From assembly GCA_000146465.1 (NCBI GenBank), contig CP001948.1: a DNA stretch of 64,000 nt; one strand, written 5' to 3'. Numbering within the stretch: position 1 is the first letter of the stretch; every line of letters begins with the position of its first letter. This document shows positions 18,948 to 57,030 of this stretch, one piece after another. Position numbers and translations under genes: made by a program. A model generated the notes under the pieces. That model saw only the letters and a program-made list of their open reading frames with translations, was not told the DNA's origin and did no database searches.

Positions 18948-19251
18948 ATGGTAAGTCGGCTTTAGACTGGTTAATTTGTAGAGTAAAGGTACAGCCAGCT
19001 TTGGAAAAAAGAACAAGAGGAACACGGAAATGTGTAGAAGATGCGGAAGACAGAGTTATCACAAGCAGAAGAATTCATGCTCATCATGCGGATATCCTAC
19101 TCCGAAGATGAGAAACCCAGGGTCTATCAAGGCAAGACGTAGACGCACTGTCGGAACGGGCAGAATGAGATACATGAAAAGAGAACTGAGGGCTGCAAAG
19201 AACGGACATAGGGGAAATCCAATATTGAGGCCCCTCTGGAGTGGAAATTAA
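18948..19251 (+). CDS. RPL37: 60S ribosomal protein L37e, with exon 1 = ATG only (18948-18950), intron 18951-18981, and exon 2 18982-19251
   Basis: The ORF-track ORF starts MCRRCG, which lacks the conserved L37e N-terminus. The in-frame upstream sequence reads (stop)[22 protein letters not shown], matching [66 protein letters not shown] provides a 31-nt intron with a GTAAGT donor, a TTAAT branch site and a TAG acceptor. Confidence 0.8.
18951..18981 (+). other. Spliceosomal intron (31 nt) directly after the RPL37 start codon
   Basis: GTAAGT...TTAATTTGTAG. Removing it restores the conserved L37e N-terminus. Confidence 0.75.
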
Positions 19252-19318
19252 AGTGGTTTTCTTTCTGTTTTAATCAGTAATGCCTCATACATAAAAGACT
19301 TTGGGCCTAGACCCTGAA

Positions 19319-52491: not shown

Positions 52492-53220
52492 TCAAATACG
52501 GCTTTTATCGAGTTGATTAAGAATATCGGCAAACTCCAGCAATGGATTCAATGTCCTTGGCTTCTCCTCCCACTGATCCGGAAGAATCATCGAGGAGGTT
52601 GCTTCTAGAGCTGCAATGGAAGCCTTAGCAAAATTTTCTGTTGTTGAAGTGGCACCGGAAGATATCGTGTAGAGATCTTTAATACCTGCCAGCTCAAATA
52701 TCTTCTTGTTGATCCCTCCAGATACAATTCCTGTTCCTCTTGGTGCTGGAACCACCCGGACAATCGAAGTTCCGCACTTTCCAGATCCCTTGCAGGACAC
52801 TGTGTGTGGCTTTCCTTGGGCTCCATCCCAAAGCCCTAACCTTACTGGTCTTATTGCACACTTAGCTCTAGATATAGCTCCTCGGATTGCAGATGCTGCT
52901 TCCTTCGAGGCCTTGGTTCCAAGGCCAACGTGCCCATTTCCATCTCCAACTACAACCACTGCCTTTATTCTGGTCTTCTGGCCTGCTCTTGTCTGCTTTT
53001 GAACAGATTTAATCGATAAAACTTCTTCCTTTATCGAATTGCCGCATAGCATATCAACTATTTCCGGTTCACGGATCACATGGGAGAATTTGAAGATCTG
53101 ATCAAGAGACGTTATCTTGAACATCTTGACGAGCCTTCCAACAGCAGTCTTGGGTACCCACTCGTTTTCTTCTCTCTTCGGAAACGGCCTACCTGTATTT
53201 CTTTTCTCGGTATGTTCCAT
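52492..53220 (-). CDS. RPS2: 40S ribosomal protein S2 (uS5)
   Basis: [68 protein letters not shown]...[29 protein letters not shown] matches uS5 closely. Confidence 0.9.
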
Positions 53221-53356
53221 TTTAAGGGCCTATGAGAGATCAAAAAATTTGCTTCTCCAATCCGGCACAAGAATATAAAGGTCTCTTCTTAAACACAAAG
53301 TGTTATTTACGGATCAGTATTTCAAAATATCGAAAACTTTTAATAAACAACAGAAC

Positions 53357-54155
53357 ATGAAGTGTAGAAAGGTTTGTTCAAAAACTCTCTTATCTATTTC
53401 TCTAACACCTGTTGGAAGAACCATAGACAACTTTACTAGGGACATGAGCCTGGTTAAAAGTAATCCGACACTTCTACAAACATTCTATGACTATATTTCG
53501 ATAAAGTACGGAGTTAAATGTGAGACAGGAATCGACTTGGTGGAAAGAGTGGTGATGGCCGATGGTTTCAAGCAGTAAGTGGAAAAGACCTAATTTTAGT
53601 CTTCTAGATGCGAAGGATCCTACTAATGAACTTATAAATAAGAAGATTCTTCTATATAGATGGATTAGTCCAGAACACTTGGAACTTAAGAATACAGAGA
53701 GAAGTGTGCTGGAAGATATCTCTAGGGAGTTTAGAGGTATCACCTCCCTGCAAACACCGACTGAAAAGATAACTCATATGATGGGGATAATGGAAAAGTT
53801 GTGTGATGTAGTTGGAAGAACCGAAGGCCAGGACATAATCCTACCATCTATCATATATTGCATTATAAAGTCGTCTCTTCCCAATATATATTTGGAAGTT
53901 AGGTTCATGGCTCTTTATAGAAGGAAGAGCATGGAAAAGTGCAAAGAAAGATGCAATCACGGATTTAGTATCGATGCCAGCTGTGAGTGTTTCTCCAGCA
54001 GGCCATACGATGAGAAGGAGGTAAACTATTATTTAACATCAATGCAGGCGGCAGTAGAATTCATAAGAAAAATGGAATTTTATGATCTAAAAATCAGTGA
54101 AGGAGAATTCTATGAAAACATGATGGATGCGGTAAAGCTCGTAAAAGATATTTGA
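53357..54155 (+). CDS. VPS9-domain protein (Rab5-family GEF), with exon 1 ending at 53574, a 25-nt intron 53575-53599, and exon 2 from 53600 to 54155
   Basis: ORF 53300..53578 (frame 2) and ORF 53562..54155 (frame 0) overlap at CAGTAAGTGG. Removing GTAAGTGGAAAAGACCTAATTTTAG (GTAAGT donor, CTAAT branch site, TTTTAG acceptor) joins ...VVMADGFK-H-LLDAKDPTNELINKK... in frame. The downstream part carries the VPS9 signature (ILPSIIYCIIKSSLPNIYLEVRFM...NYYLTSMQAAVEFI). The first ATG in exon 1 is at 53357, since ORF-track 53300 is GTG. Confidence 0.65.
53575..53599 (+). other. Spliceosomal intron (25 nt) in the VPS9-domain gene
   Basis: GTAAGTGGAAAAGACCTAATTTTAG. Removing it restores the frame between the two ORFs. 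Confidence 0.65.
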
Positions 54156-54190: not shown

Positions 54191-54652
54191 ATGAAGGAGA
54201 GAATACTTAATGGGCTACACAAACTTTTTATCACCAATATTCCAAGGAAGGCAAGAAGACAATTGGTTTATGAACTTCTCACACAAGTGTCAAAAATTGG
54301 CCACCTCTATTACAACCAAGATAGGGGATATTGCTTTGTAGACTATGAGACATATGAGGAATTAGAATACACTTATAACGTTCTTCGGGGTGTTAAGCTG
54401 TATGGAAAAAGACTGTACTTCAGTAAAGTCGAAAAACAAGTGAGAATTGTTGTCAGGAATATAGGACAGGAAGTAGATGGGGTTTTCCTCTGGGACGTTT
54501 TCAGTAAATTCGGGCCGTGCCATATTGAGATGAATGAGGGCGGACTAGGTGTTGTTATATATAGACGAGAAGACTCTGCTATTAAAGCTGTAGAAGTGGT
54601 GAACGGAAAAGTTATAGGAGGCTCAGAAGTATCTGTGGAAATTGATAAATAG
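54191..54652 (+). CDS. Two-RRM splicing factor, SF3b4/Hsh49-like
   Basis: RRM1 LFITNIPRKA...GYCFVDYETYEELEYTYNVLRGVKLYGKRLYFSKVEK resembles SF3b4 (...NMIKLYGKPIRVNKA). RRM2 IVVRNIGQEVDGVFLWDVFSKFG. ORF-track 54152 is TTG, and the first ATG is at 54191. Confidence 0.5.
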   Translation: MKERILNGLHKLFITNIPRKARRQLVYELLTQVSKIGHLYYNQDRGYCFVDYETYEELEYTYNVLRGVKLYGKRLYFSKVEKQVRIVVRNIGQEVDGVFLWDVFSKFGPCHIEMNEGGLGVVIYRREDSAIKAVEVVNGKVIGGSEVSVEIDK

Positions 54653-54696: not shown

Positions 54697-57030
54697 TCAT
54701 TCGTATGCATCCTCATTTACCACGTTCAAGCCAAAGGCTTCTTCTTTCTTTTTTCTTTCGGAAAACGCCTTTACAGCATTCATAAGACATTCTCCATAAT
54801 TTATATCTCCTGTTTTCATCGTAATTGATTTCAAATCATGGCTCATATCAACAGTTAAGGATTTTATCTGGTCTATGAAGTTGTCCGCACTACGCGCCTT
54901 CAGAAAGTAGGCTCCATATTTGAGATATTCTTCTTGCTTTTCAAACAGATTCTTAATTACTTCATACTTCTGGAGAAGCTCGGAATTGGGAAAGGATTCC
55001 TTGAAAGCATTATATATCTTTTGAGACTTCTCCAATACTCCCGCACCTTCCTTTAATCTGGATTTCAAATCTAACAGCTCTTGGTAGTCTAAGGAAATCT
55101 TTTCCATTTCGTTCTCCTTAAAGAAAGAATTCACCTCGCTTGGGAAGTCGGAGTATTGGATAGGAGCCGAGATATGGCCTTCTTCCTGAGGCGCTTCTCT
55201 AGAGCCAATCCGATGTTGAATCTCGGAATCTTTACTGTTATAGTTAATGTCTTTCTCTGTTTCATATACATTATAAGCTTCTCGGGAGTTTTCTGGCTGA
55301 TTCTCTGCCAAAGTAGGTCCCGGAGCTCTAGCGTGGAGAATTCCATCTTTGAACCATGGAGAGTTACCCATTCTTCTTTGAGAAGAAGCTGCGTCCGAAG
55401 AATACGGGAAGCCACCTTCCGGGAAGAAGTTTCTAAATCCACTCTGGAACCATGGAGCAGGACTTGAGTAGCCCCTGTATTCCCCAGTGTTTACAGAAAA
55501 GCCCCTTTCCTCCTTCTTGGTGTTGGGAAAATACTCTATGTTTTTTTTTGTATTCTCATGCCTTCGTAGAAACTCTTCATATGGAATCCTCGGATCTTCA
55601 TCCGCAGACCCAAATATCCACTGGTTGAAGTTTTGGGTGCTCAAAAAAGCTTGTTTTCCATCTGTTGTTGGGCCTGTTTGCTCAGGGTTCCGTGGAGCAT
55701 GAAAATAGGGTTGATGATGCATCTGCTGGTTAAAAAAGATCGGCAAAGGTTTTGTTGTTTCCTTCCCTGTATTTGGATAGTGCCTGTTAAATGCCAAAGA
55801 GTTGTCCATCCACCCGGCACTAGTTTTAGTTTGAGGAGGGCCCATTGGAAACATGTTCATAGATCGGTCCTGGGGGTCTGAATGAGGAAAGCTGTCCATG
55901 ATTTCGGAAGACGAAGCCATGGGAAAGCTTTGCATATCCGGCATTCTAGAAGGATATTTGTGTGAGGGGATTGAATGACTAGGGGAAGCAAAAGGCCTTT
56001 GATTTCCATACATTGGTTTTCCTGAAAACTGAAACATATTCATACTTCTTGGATTGGAATAGGATGAAGAAGAATTACGATTAAATTGCCGAGGATTCTG
56101 AAGGGGGACAAAGCCTCTCCCATTGAATGGAGCAACTCCCGGAGATTTACCTTGCTGCATTTCATCGAAATTCATATCAATAGAAGGCTTCGACATGTTT
56201 TCATCCTTTGGAACTTCCCTTCCATAGTCGTAATGGCCAAATCTAGTGCCAAATCCCTGATTTACATATCCAAAAGGTTGCGATGGCACTTCCTGATGCT
56301 GCCCCTCCCTTTGCATAAAAAAAGGCCTTTGATCAGGAGTGTTCTGAAAGTTTTTCCTGCTGTTCAAGCCGTAGGGATCCACCTCAGGCTGAGACCTCCT
56401 AAAAAACATAGGGTTTCCAGGACTATTAGAGAAGCTTTCTTCGTTTACAATGTGATCAGACTCATGATGAGAATTTTGAATGTTACATGAGTTGGACCTT
56501 CCTCTAGTACTGCTTTCCATACCTCGGTCATTGAATCTGGAAATGCCATCTGATTCATAGAGGTCATGCTTCCGACTTATCCTCATGATTTCAGGTGGAA
56601 CAAATCCATCTTGCTTTCCAAAAAGTTGTTTATTTTCTGTAAATAGCTGCTCAGACAATCTCCTTTCTCCTCTTTCAAAATTAGGATTTCCATAGGAATA
56701 ATTTTGTTTTGCAGAAGCCAGAGGTTCTCCAGAGATGCTTCCGAATTCTTGGTCCTTAGTACATGTGTAAGGCCCCACTTGCTCTTGGGTGGCTTTTCCT
56801 CTTCCATCATTTCTACTTCTATTGCTTACGACTCTCTCGATTCTCTGGAATCTTTCATTCATTCCTCTCAGGTATTCCTCTTCGGAATTACTTTCTTCAT
56901 ATATCCTCTGCTCGGCTCTTATAGCTGCTTCTTTAATCTGCACCGGTGTATATCCAGGAAAGATGTTGGACTCCTTCAATGCGATAAACAACTTGAAAAT
57001 TATCTGCTTCCTTTCTTCTTGAGATAACAT
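54697..57030 (-). CDS. Mediator Med15/Gal11-like protein: N-terminal KIX-like domain, long N/Q/P/F/S/M-rich low-complexity region, conserved C-terminal helical domain
   Basis: N-terminus QIIFKLFIALKESNIFPGYTPVQIKEAAIRAEQRIYEESNSEEEYLRGMNERFQRI resembles KIX (IFPtPDPaAl.D.R..nL..yAkkvE.dmYEsAnSrdEYy.Ll.eki). Roughly 450 aa are prion-like low-complexity. Confidence 0.35.
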   Translation of the reverse strand: MLSQEERKQIIFKLFIALKESNIFPGYTPVQIKEAAIRAEQRIYEESNSEEEYLRGMNERFQRIERVVSNRSRNDGRGKATQEQVGPYTCTKDQEFGSISGEPLASAKQNYSYGNPNFERGERRLSEQLFTENKQLFGKQDGFVPPEIMRISRKHDLYESDGISRFNDRGMESSTRGRSNSCNIQNSHHESDHIVNEESFSNSPGNPMFFRRSQPEVDPYGLNSRKNFQNTPDQRPFFMQREGQHQEVPSQPFGYVNQGFGTRFGHYDYGREVPKDENMSKPSIDMNFDEMQQGKSPGVAPFNGRGFVPLQNPRQFNRNSSSSYSNPRSMNMFQFSGKPMYGNQRPFASPSHSIPSHKYPSRMPDMQSFPMASSSEIMDSFPHSDPQDRSMNMFPMGPPQTKTSAGWMDNSLAFNRHYPNTGKETTKPLPIFFNQQMHHQPYFHAPRNPEQTGPTTDGKQAFLSTQNFNQWIFGSADEDPRIPYEEFLRRHENTKKNIEYFPNTKKEERGFSVNTGEYRGYSSPAPWFQSGFRNFFPEGGFPYSSDAASSQRRMGNSPWFKDGILHARAPGPTLAENQPENSREAYNVYETEKDINYNSKDSEIQHRIGSREAPQEEGHISAPIQYSDFPSEVNSFFKENEMEKISLDYQELLDLKSRLKEGAGVLEKSQKIYNAFKESFPNSELLQKYEVIKNLFEKQEEYLKYGAYFLKARSADNFIDQIKSLTVDMSHDLKSITMKTGDINYGECLMNAVKAFSERKKKEEAFGLNVVNEDAYE

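What the first reader, a model, noticed from the sequence alone, without database searches (positions are those of the whole stretch)
53300..54155. A 25-nt intron joins two out-of-frame ORFs into one VPS9-domain (Rab5 GEF) gene
ORF 53300-53578 and ORF 53562-54155 are in different frames and overlap at ...AAGCAGTAAGTGGAAAAGACCTAATTTTAGTCTTCTAGAT. Removing GTAAGTGGAAAAGACCTAATTTTAG (GTAAGT donor, CTAAT branch-like site, TTTTAG acceptor) fuses them in frame as ...ERVVMADGFK-H-LLDAKDPTNELINKK.... The intron has the same architecture as the RPL37 intron. The downstream part carries the VPS9 catalytic signature. The upstream part would be the helical bundle that normally precedes VPS9. Without the intron the VPS9 domain would start at an internal Met with no N-terminal helical region. 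An intron in a non-ribosomal gene is uncommon in very reduced genomes.
Basis: partly seen in the sequence, partly recalled or inferred. Interest (0 to 1): 0.55.

Follow-up and report, generated by a model that had tools for sequence, protein, structure and literature searches.

The report
Known 25-nt intron in microsporidian VPS9 gene
The two out-of-frame reading frames are joined by a real 25-base spliceosomal intron into one small Rab5-activator (VPS9) gene of the parasite Encephalitozoon intestinalis, and this gene model is already in the public annotation, so the finding is correct but ordinary.

Summary
Confirmed, and already known. The window is Encephalitozoon intestinalis chromosome VII. 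Removing 53575-53599 (GTAAGTGGAAAAGACCTAATTTTAG) joins 53357-53574 to 53600-54155 in frame. The 257-aa product is letter-for-letter GenBank ADM11927.2 (Eint_071680). It is annotated in five E. intestinalis assemblies as a 799-nt gene, which is 774 nt of coding sequence plus 25 nt.

Nine orthologous loci carry an intron at the same codon and phase. Lengths are 20, 24, 25, 26 and 27 nt. GTAAGTG at the 5' end and TAA[C/T]...TTAG at the 3' end are invariant, and the middle is variable. Splicing restores the frame in every case. One related species has a precisely intronless ORF. Exon 1 changes mainly at third codon positions.

A high-confidence structure model (pLDDT 91) matches the helical-bundle + Vps9 cores of Rabex-5 and AtVps9a over its full length. 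The exon junction aligns to the linker between those two domains. The four Rabex-5 catalytic determinants are conserved in exon 2.

The start is ATG 53357, not GTG 53300. Introns in non-ribosomal genes are not unusual in this genus.

Minor extras: the gene is annotated without exon 1 in E. cuniculi GB-M1 and Ordospora; one relative has a 20-nt intron here; and a Cys/His motif is conserved across microsporidian orthologs.

The parts
53357..53574 (+). Exon 1 of Eint_071680 (VPS9-domain protein). It encodes residues 1-72 plus the first two bases of codon 73, and forms the helical-bundle (HB) domain, including conserved C3-x3-C7 and C55.
   Evidence: First in-frame ATG. The product is identical to ADM11927.2. 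The annotated gene span of 799 nt equals 53357-54155. Mismatch fractions at codon positions 1/2/3 are 0.23/0.19/0.56 across 8 species. It aligns to the Rabex-5 HB. The model is helical here: H3-15, H18-27, H31-35, H38-51, H56-66, H70-74.
53575..53599 (+). 25-nt GT-AG spliceosomal intron in phase 2. The 5' splice site GTAAGTG is at 53575-53581, the branch-like CTAAT at 53590-53594, and the TTTTAG acceptor ends at 53599. If the intron is retained, the TAA at 53576-53578 stops translation after 73 aa.
   Evidence: Sequence. An intron at the same position and phase is present in 8 other loci, with lengths 20-27 nt and invariant ends. It is annotated in E. intestinalis and E. hellem.
53600..54155 (+). 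Exon 2: the last base of codon 73, residues 74-257 and the TGA stop. It encodes the HB-Vps9 linker, the Vps9 domain and a C-terminal helix.
53712..54077 (+). Pfam VPS9 (PF02204) match, residues 111-232. It contains the catalytic determinants D151 (53832-53834), P155, E213 and Y216.
   Evidence: E = 1.1e-17, 64.8 bits. Residue-by-residue alignment to Rabex-5. Roles of Asp313, Pro317, Glu351 and Tyr354 from PMC4379102.
53940..53990 (+). Cys/His motif C187-x3-C191-x-H193...C201-x-C203. It lies inside an insertion of about 30 residues between the last two Vps9 helices. Rabex-5 has no equivalent.
   Evidence: Invariant or nearly invariant in alignments A1, A2 and A4. The region is unaligned to Rabex-5. 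In the model it is a loop with pLDDT 71-87.
53300..53356 (+). Not coding. This is the 5' extension of the ORF from a GTG, produced by bacterial-style ORF listing. It is 5' leader or promoter sequence.
   Evidence: The annotated product starts at M(53357). Orthologs all start at the equivalent MKC/MRC.
53562..53600 (+). Spurious N-terminus of 'ORF2' (MVSSSKWKRPNFS). It is read out of frame across the end of exon 1 and through the intron.
   Evidence: The ORF2 'starts' differ in every ortholog, whereas the spliced junction is conserved.

Best explanation
The locus is one gene, Eint_071680 of Encephalitozoon intestinalis chromosome VII: join(53357..53574, 53600..54155).

It is interrupted by a canonical microsporidian mini-intron of 25 nt, of the U2 type with GT-AG ends. 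By inference from the standard mechanism, the 5' end GUAAGU is recognised by U1/U6 and the CUAAU near the 3' end by U2. The branch A lies only 6 nt from the AG. Lariat formation and exon ligation fuse codon 73 (CA|T = His).

The mRNA encodes a 257-aa protein that is nothing more than the minimal catalytic core of a Rab5-family exchange factor. Exon 1 encodes a four/five-helix bundle. Exon 2 encodes the Vps9 domain with its aspartate finger (D151) and Y216, plus a C-terminal helix. The intron sits at the linker between the two domains.

Unspliced transcripts stop at the TAA inside the 5' splice site and would give only a 73-aa bundle fragment.

Shown here: the sequence, frame restoration, conservation, fold and identity to the annotation. 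Inferred: actual splicing in this species, GEF activity and Rab5 as the substrate.
For: 1. Identity with annotation. The fused 257-aa protein is an exact match to ADM11927.2 / Eint_071680. In five NCBI assemblies the gene spans 799 nt, which is 774 + 25. The locus DNA is identical to the window.

2. The E. hellem ortholog is annotated as 257 aa with a 25-nt intron at the same place.

3. Introns at the same codon and phase occur in 9 lineages: the window, L001, L002, L003, L004/5, L006, L007/8, L009 and L011. Lengths are 25, 25, 26, 24, 27, 25, 27, 25 and 20 nt, which covers all three residues mod 3. Splicing always yields one long ORF: 254-272 aa in eight loci, and 183 aa up to the contig end in L011. 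Without splicing, translation always stops after 71-88 aa (72-88 aa; 71 aa for L011). GTAAGTG and TAAY..TTAG are invariant and the middle is variable.

4. Exon 1 is under coding selection: position-3 mismatch is 0.56 against 0.23 and 0.19. Exon 1 has 29 invariant columns among its 72 residues.

5. A related species has a contiguous, intronless ORF that is collinear at the junction with no indel. About 15 more distant proteins of 250-330 aa match residues 1-252 in one stretch.

6. Function. Pfam VPS9. PDB profile hits to Rabex-5 at E = 3e-12 and 8e-24 and to AtVps9a, spanning the junction. AlphaFold pLDDT 91.2 and pTM 0.89. All of the top 8 Foldseek hits are HB-Vps9 tandems, with TM 0.65-0.75 for the best five and about 260-277 aligned columns.

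7. Context. Most Eumicrosporea keep Rab5 together with a VPS9 protein (PMC13393502). The E. cuniculi ortholog ECU07_1710 is transcribed at FPKM 49-64.
Against: No RNA evidence for this junction in E. intestinalis could be examined here. The exact 257-aa product was found only as genome annotation, not on a contiguous transcript contig.

Within the window, the motif statistics alone are not significant.

Short Encephalitozoon introns are spliced inefficiently: most E. cuniculi short introns show less than 20% spliced transcripts (PMC3629993, PMC6349667). The full-length protein may therefore come from a minority of transcripts.

I could not confirm from the held literature that the E. cuniculi ortholog's intron is among the 37 verified by RNA-seq.

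The aspartate finger is not strictly invariant in the clade. It is Gly in Ordospora, which has an Asp two residues earlier, and Glu in L006.
Confidence: 0.93

Rival explanations
1. There are two independent genes and no splicing: a 73-aa ORF (53357-53578) and a 197-aa VPS9 protein that starts at ATG 53562 and lacks the helical bundle.
For: Gene callers without intron models list the two ORFs separately (P0002 and P0016). The E. cuniculi GB-M1 and Ordospora records annotate only a truncated downstream protein.
Against: The ORF2 start is not conserved. Its first residues differ in every species and derive from out-of-frame or intronic sequence. This model does not explain why the splice signals are invariant while the intron length varies, with the frame always restored. 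An intronless ortholog and distant orthologs encode both parts in one ORF. The model folds as a single HB-Vps9 unit.
Confidence: 0.03
2. The frame break is an assembly or sequencing error, or a pseudogenising indel, or it is bypassed by ribosomal frameshifting rather than by splicing.
For: Two overlapping ORFs in different frames are also what an indel or a frameshift site would produce.
Against: The same 2,799 nt are identical in an independent assembly, and the gene model occurs in five assemblies. The interruption is present in 9 lineages with canonical GT-AG signals. Both exons are under purifying selection. A 25-nt skip is not a known frameshifting mechanism, and the TAA at 53576 blocks read-through.
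Confidence: 0.01
3. The intron is real but mostly retained. Splicing efficiency then limits how much full-length GEF is made, and the main translation product of the locus is a free 73-aa helical-bundle peptide that may have a role of its own. This is a refinement of the best explanation, not an exclusive alternative.
For: In E. cuniculi, 30 of 37 introns are less than 50% spliced and 22 are less than 20% spliced (PMC3629993). The phase-2 GTAAGT gives an in-frame TAA in all nine lineages, so retention always yields a clean exon-1 peptide. The intron lies at a domain boundary (PMC4102244). The intron has been kept across deep divergence, down to 26% protein identity.
Against: There is no expression or proteomic data for this locus. 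At least one lineage lost the intron precisely and evidently does without it. Low splicing is a genome-wide property attributed to a reduced spliceosome, not a feature of this gene (PMC3629993).
Confidence: 0.1

Closest known systems
Eint_071680 (ADM11927.2), E. intestinalis ATCC 50506, and its E. hellem ortholog (257 aa, 'vacuolar sorting protein 9 domain-containing protein')
   Same: It is the same gene. The product is identical over all 257 residues, and the annotated gene span of 799 nt implies the same 25-nt intron. E. hellem has a 25-nt intron at the same codon.
   Different: Nothing differs for E. intestinalis.
Short spliceosomal introns of Encephalitozoon cuniculi (37 known; Lee et al. 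2010 and Grisdale et al. 2013, PMC3629993; Whelan et al. 2019, PMC6349667)
   Same: GT-AG ends, a strict GTAAGT 5' site, a branch motif a few nt from the AG, a length of about 25 nt (reported range 22-76), and ORF disruption if retained. Like the 2010 set, it is not at the extreme 5' end and is in a non-ribosomal gene.
   Different: I could not verify that the ECU07_1710 intron is on the published list. The nr record for E. cuniculi GB-M1 still gives a 149-aa truncated protein.
RPL37 intron in the same window (18951-18981)
   Same: GTAAGT donor, a TAAT branch-like motif and an AG 4-6 nt later. It is the only other ORF-joining candidate in the 64 kb.
   Different: It is 31 nt, phase 0, and lies directly after the ATG, which is the classical 5'-biased ribosomal-protein type. 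The VPS9 intron is 218 nt into the CDS, in phase 2.
HB-Vps9 catalytic cores of Rabex-5 (1TXU, 2OT3) and Arabidopsis Vps9a (2EFC, 4G01)
   Same: An N-terminal helical bundle, then the Vps9 domain, then a C-terminal helix. The match is full-length with TM 0.65-0.75. D313, P317, E351 and Y354 are conserved as D151, P155, E213 and Y216 (PMC4379102).
   Different: At 257 aa the protein has no ubiquitin-binding, membrane-binding or coiled-coil regions. The bundle is shorter: 72 residues against about 98. There is a Cys/His-rich insertion of about 30 residues between the last two Vps9 helices, and an N-terminal CxxxC. Both are absent from Rabex-5.

Membership tests
Microsporidian (Encephalitozoon-type) U2 GT-AG mini-intron | GT...AG boundaries with the strict 5' splice site GTAAGT | tested here: met
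   53575-53580 GTAAGT and 53598-53599 AG. GTAAGTG is invariant in 9 lineages.
Microsporidian (Encephalitozoon-type) U2 GT-AG mini-intron | Branch-point motif (yeast-like ..CTAAC / TAAY) a few nt upstream of the 3' AG | tested here: met
   CTAAT at 53590-53594, with the AG 4 nt later. TAA[C/T] followed by T2-4AG is present in all orthologs. The branch usage itself is not demonstrated.
Microsporidian (Encephalitozoon-type) U2 GT-AG mini-intron | Length in the reported range (22-76 nt, mostly ~25) | tested here: met
   25 nt. The range is from PMC3629993.
Microsporidian (Encephalitozoon-type) U2 GT-AG mini-intron | Retention breaks the ORF; removal restores a conserved protein | tested here: met
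   Unspliced 73 aa against spliced 257 aa. The same holds in every ortholog despite lengths of 20-27 nt.
Microsporidian (Encephalitozoon-type) U2 GT-AG mini-intron | Positional conservation in orthologs, with intronless orthologs collinear at the junction | tested here: met
Microsporidian (Encephalitozoon-type) U2 GT-AG mini-intron | Spliced transcripts observed | not testable with these tools
   No RNA-seq access. The exact product was found only as genome annotation. Published E. cuniculi RNA-seq confirms all annotated introns in that species (PMC3629993), but the per-gene list is not held as text.
VPS9-domain Rab5-family GEF (HB-Vps9 tandem) | Pfam PF02204 above the gathering score | tested here: met
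   64.8 bits against a cut-off of 27, E = 1.1e-17, residues 111-232.
VPS9-domain Rab5-family GEF (HB-Vps9 tandem) | N-terminal helical bundle packed against the Vps9 domain | tested here: met
   The profile alignment to the Rabex-5 HB starts at residue ~27. AF2 pLDDT is 91. Full-length Foldseek matches to 2OT3, 1TXU, 4G01 and 2EFC.
VPS9-domain Rab5-family GEF (HB-Vps9 tandem) | Catalytic determinants Asp313 (aspartate finger), Pro317, Glu351, Tyr354 (Rabex-5 numbering) | tested here: met
   D151, P155, E213 and Y216 align to them (residue roles from PMC4379102). E213 and Y216 are invariant in the clade. D151 is replaced in Ordospora and L006.
VPS9-domain Rab5-family GEF (HB-Vps9 tandem) | Nucleotide-exchange activity on Rab5 | not testable with these tools
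   Needs biochemistry. The only support is co-occurrence of Rab5 and VPS9 in most Eumicrosporea (PMC13393502).

The most novel reading that the evidence does not exclude
The conserved Cys/His residues form one or two structural zinc sites specific to microsporidian VPS9 proteins. The residues are C3, C7 and C55 in exon 1, and C187, C191, H193, C201 and C203 in the Vps9 insertion. Such sites would clamp the exon-1 helical bundle to the catalytic domain.

In addition, the deeply conserved, inefficiently spliced intron at the domain boundary could set the ratio of a free bundle peptide to full-length GEF.

Neither idea is excluded by my data, and neither is shown.
Probability: 0.2. Interest if true: 0.4.

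Novelty: already known. Interest (0 to 1): 0.15.

Why it matters
For this genome it changes nothing, because the gene model with this intron is already public.

Its modest value lies elsewhere:
- It shows that a reader without tools can recover a genuine mini-intron from sequence alone.
- The same intron is missing from the public models of E. cuniculi GB-M1 (149 aa) and two Ordospora species (182 aa). Those models therefore lack the helical bundle.
- The intron is old. It is shared by lineages whose proteins are only 26% identical. It sits at a domain boundary, and in one lineage it has shrunk to 20 nt. This makes it a useful data point for studies of minimal intron size and of intron retention in reduced genomes.

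Tried and rejected
1. Within-window statistics as proof. The loose intron motif is at chance level. The ORF-joining scan with permuted donors is not significant either: 18 of 89 decoys give 2 or more sites. I therefore relied on comparative data instead.

2. First AlphaFold run with a shallow alignment (12 rows, only 2 with exon 1). It gave pLDDT 55 and was unusable. It was replaced by a 29-row alignment.

4. A second word-indexed homolog search with the profile added only close relatives. The exhaustive HMMER search was needed to reach distant orthologs.

5. Literature. Lee et al. 2010 and Pombert et al. 2012 are not held. No paper mentions ECU07_1710 or Eint_071680. The intron table of Grisdale et al. 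2013 is not held as text. There are no supplements for PMC13393502. I therefore could not establish who first described this intron.

6. The alternative acceptor at 53607 (33-nt intron) is rejected as the main site. It shifts the frame and stops after 6 codons (reading).

7. I first thought the junction lay inside the helical bundle. Mapping the alignment onto Rabex-5 numbering (HB 132-229, PMC4102244) showed that it lies at the HB-Vps9 linker.

8. The E. cuniculi DNA could not be fetched.

Full report
**Observation.** ORF 53300-53578 and ORF 53562-54155 lie in different frames. The 25 nt at 53575-53599 read GTAAGTGGAAAAGACCTAATTTTAG. Removing them joins the frames: the exon lengths sum to a multiple of three, and codon 73 becomes CA|T = His. 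The result is ...ADGFK-H-LLDAKDPTNELINKK.... The listed start at 53300 is a GTG produced by bacterial-style ORF listing. The first in-frame ATG is 53357, and from there the spliced product is 257 aa.

**Source and annotation status.** An exact-sequence look-up identifies the neighbours as Encephalitozoon intestinalis ATCC 50506 genes. They are 40S ribosomal protein S2 (52492-53220, minus strand) and Eint_071700 (54697-57030, minus strand). The fused 257-aa protein is itself in GenBank as ADM11927.2, 'uncharacterized protein Eint_071680', and in UniRef as 'VPS9 domain-containing protein'. It is carried by five NCBI assemblies. In these the gene spans 799 nt, which is 774 nt of coding sequence plus 25 nt. 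The locus DNA (2,799 nt) is identical to the window.

**Is it more than chance?** Within the window alone the answer is no.
- A loose donor/branch/acceptor pattern occurs 5 times, against 4.2 +/- 2.1 in shuffled sequence.
- A stricter scan also requires that removal join an ATG-initiated ORF to at least 50 further codons. It finds exactly two sites on both strands: this one and the RPL37 intron at 18951-18981.
- Permuted donor hexamers give 0.7 such sites on average, and 18 of 89 decoys give two or more.

The decisive evidence is comparative.

**Comparative evidence.** Orthologous loci were fetched from E. hellem (L001), an E. romaleae-like genome (L002), Ordospora pajunii (L004/L005) and several unnamed relatives (L003, L006, L007/L008, L009). 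All share the same gene order: Spt6-like gene, RPS2, VPS9, RRM protein, Med15-like gene.
- Every locus has an intron-like element at the same codon and in phase 2. Lengths are 25, 26, 24, 27, 25, 27 and 25 nt.
- The first seven bases, GTAAGTG, are invariant. So is the 3' end, TAA[C/T] followed by T-rich sequence and AG. The middle differs in sequence and length.
- The lengths cover all three residues mod 3, so the relative frame of the two ORFs differs between species. Splicing nevertheless gives a single ORF of 254-272 aa in each, and the unspliced reading stops after 72-88 aa.
- A much more divergent ortholog (L011, 26% identity) has a 20-nt element, GTAAGTGAAGTTTAATTTAG, at the same position and phase. 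Removing it again restores a VPS9-homologous frame.
- A relative at 45% identity (L010) has a contiguous 256-aa ORF with no intron and no indel at the junction.
- About 15 proteins of 250-330 aa from more distant microsporidia match residues 1-252 in one stretch.
- Exon 1 is coding. Pairwise mismatch fractions at codon positions 1, 2 and 3 are 0.23, 0.19 and 0.56, similar to the start of exon 2. Of its 72 residues, 29 are invariant across eight species.

**The protein.** Pfam VPS9 matches residues 111-232 at 64.8 bits, against a cut-off of 27.

Profiles of the family hit the helical-bundle + Vps9 cores of Rabex-5 (1TXU, 2OT3, 4N3Z, 4Q9U) at E = 3e-12 with 8 sequences and 8e-24 with 29 sequences. 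They also hit Arabidopsis Vps9a. The alignment starts at about residue 27-33 and runs across the exon junction without a break.

I mapped the printed alignment onto Rabex-5 numbering, using Asp313 and Pro317 in SADDFLP as anchors. This puts K72|H73 opposite residues 221|222. That is the start of the 220-230 loop that ends the HB domain (132-229) before the Vps9 domain (230-368) (PMC4102244).

The four residues reported as important for Rabex-5 activity are Asp313, Pro317, Glu351 and Tyr354 (PMC4379102). They align to D151, P155, E213 and Y216, all in exon 2.

A first AlphaFold run with a shallow alignment failed (pLDDT 55). With a 29-sequence alignment the model reached pLDDT 91.2 and pTM 0.89 and is all-helical. 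Its eight significant Foldseek matches in the PDB are all HB-Vps9 tandems. TM-scores are 0.65-0.75 for the best five, over about 260-277 columns, which is the full length.

The protein is thus a bare catalytic core without the regulatory regions of Rabex-5. Most Eumicrosporea retain Rab5 together with a VPS9 protein (PMC13393502), which supplies the likely substrate. This is context, not a test.

**Mechanism.** The features match the published description of Encephalitozoon introns: GT-AG ends, strict 5' site and branch motifs, and lengths of 22-76 nt (PMC3629993).

Standard U1/U6 recognition of GUAAGU and U2 recognition of CUAAU is inferred, not shown.

The intron is in phase 2, so the TAA inside GTAAGT is in frame. 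Unspliced mRNA would encode only a 73-aa bundle fragment. In E. cuniculi, 30 of 37 introns are spliced in fewer than half of transcripts (PMC3629993), so this may be the fate of many transcripts. The E. cuniculi ortholog is transcribed at FPKM 49-64.

**Rivals.**
- Two separate genes. This is contradicted by the non-conserved ORF2 'starts', the invariant splice signals with variable length, the intronless and single-ORF orthologs and the single-unit fold.
- Sequencing error, pseudogene or frameshifting. This is contradicted by identity between assemblies, conservation in nine lineages and purifying selection.

**What I could not do.** I could not examine RNA reads. I could not obtain the papers that list the E. 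cuniculi introns gene by gene. No held paper mentions ECU07_1710 or Eint_071680.

**Verdict.** The novelty class is 'already known' and the interest is low. By-products worth recording:
- truncated public models in E. cuniculi GB-M1 and Ordospora;
- a 20-nt intron in one relative;
- a precise intron loss in another;
- a Cys/His motif conserved across microsporidian orthologs and of untested function.

Noticed in passing
window 18948-19252 (+): RPL37 gene. The ATG is at 18948-18950, followed at once by a 31-nt intron at 18951-18981 (GTAAGTCGGCTTTAGACTGGTTAATTTGTAG). Exon 2 starts at 18982, giving [14 protein letters not shown]... (90 aa). It is the only other ORF-joining intron candidate in the window.
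   Followed up: partly
window 53363-53377, 53519-53521 and 53940-53990 (+): A conserved Cys/His set: C3-x3-C7 and C55 in exon 1, and C187-x3-C191-x-H193...C201-x-C203 in an insertion of about 30 residues in the Vps9 domain that Rabex-5 lacks. It is present in nearly all microsporidian orthologs. One ortholog (P0032) lacks both the second N-terminal Cys and C191/H193/C201. This may be one or more zinc sites linking the bundle to the catalytic domain. It could not be tested because the tools did not give me the model's coordinates.
   Followed up: partly
L011 944-963: A 20-nt intron, GTAAGTGAAGTTTAATTTAG, at the same codon and phase in an ortholog of only 26% identity. Removing it restores the VPS9 frame, whereas the next AG (28 nt) does not. 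This is shorter than the 22-nt minimum quoted for E. cuniculi (PMC3629993).
   Followed up: partly
L010 777-1547: An intronless ortholog: a contiguous 256-aa ORF, 45% identical, with the same downstream RRM neighbour, collinear at the junction with no indel. This looks like a precise intron loss.
   Followed up: partly
P0005 (E. cuniculi ECU07_1710, 149 aa); P0007 (O. pajunii, 182 aa; L004 2755-3549); P0019 (O. colligata OCOL_000901, 182 aa): The public protein models of these orthologs lack exon 1 and start at internal Met residues. L004 shows the unannotated exon-1 ORF plus a 27-nt intron directly upstream.
   Followed up: partly
window, both strands: GTAAGT occurs 17 times, against a mean of 38.6 for the other 89 permutations of its letters. 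This could be depletion of cryptic 5' splice sites or a composition effect. It was not examined further.
   Followed up: no
window 53600-53607 (+): A second AG lies 8 nt downstream of the acceptor (TCTTCTAG). Using it would give a 33-nt intron, a frameshift and a stop after 6 codons. Minor use of downstream acceptors is reported for three E. cuniculi genes (PMC3629993). L006 has a similar second AG.
   Followed up: no
window 53221-53356; L001-L009 upstream of the ATG: The 136-nt divergent spacer between RPS2 and the VPS9 gene contains a short element 20-40 nt upstream of the ATG that recurs in the orthologs: TTCAAAAT..CGAAA in the Encephalitozoon loci and CTGAAACAT in the others. It may be a promoter or start-site signal. 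The downstream RRM-protein gene starts at 54191, only 35 nt after the VPS9 stop.
   Followed up: no
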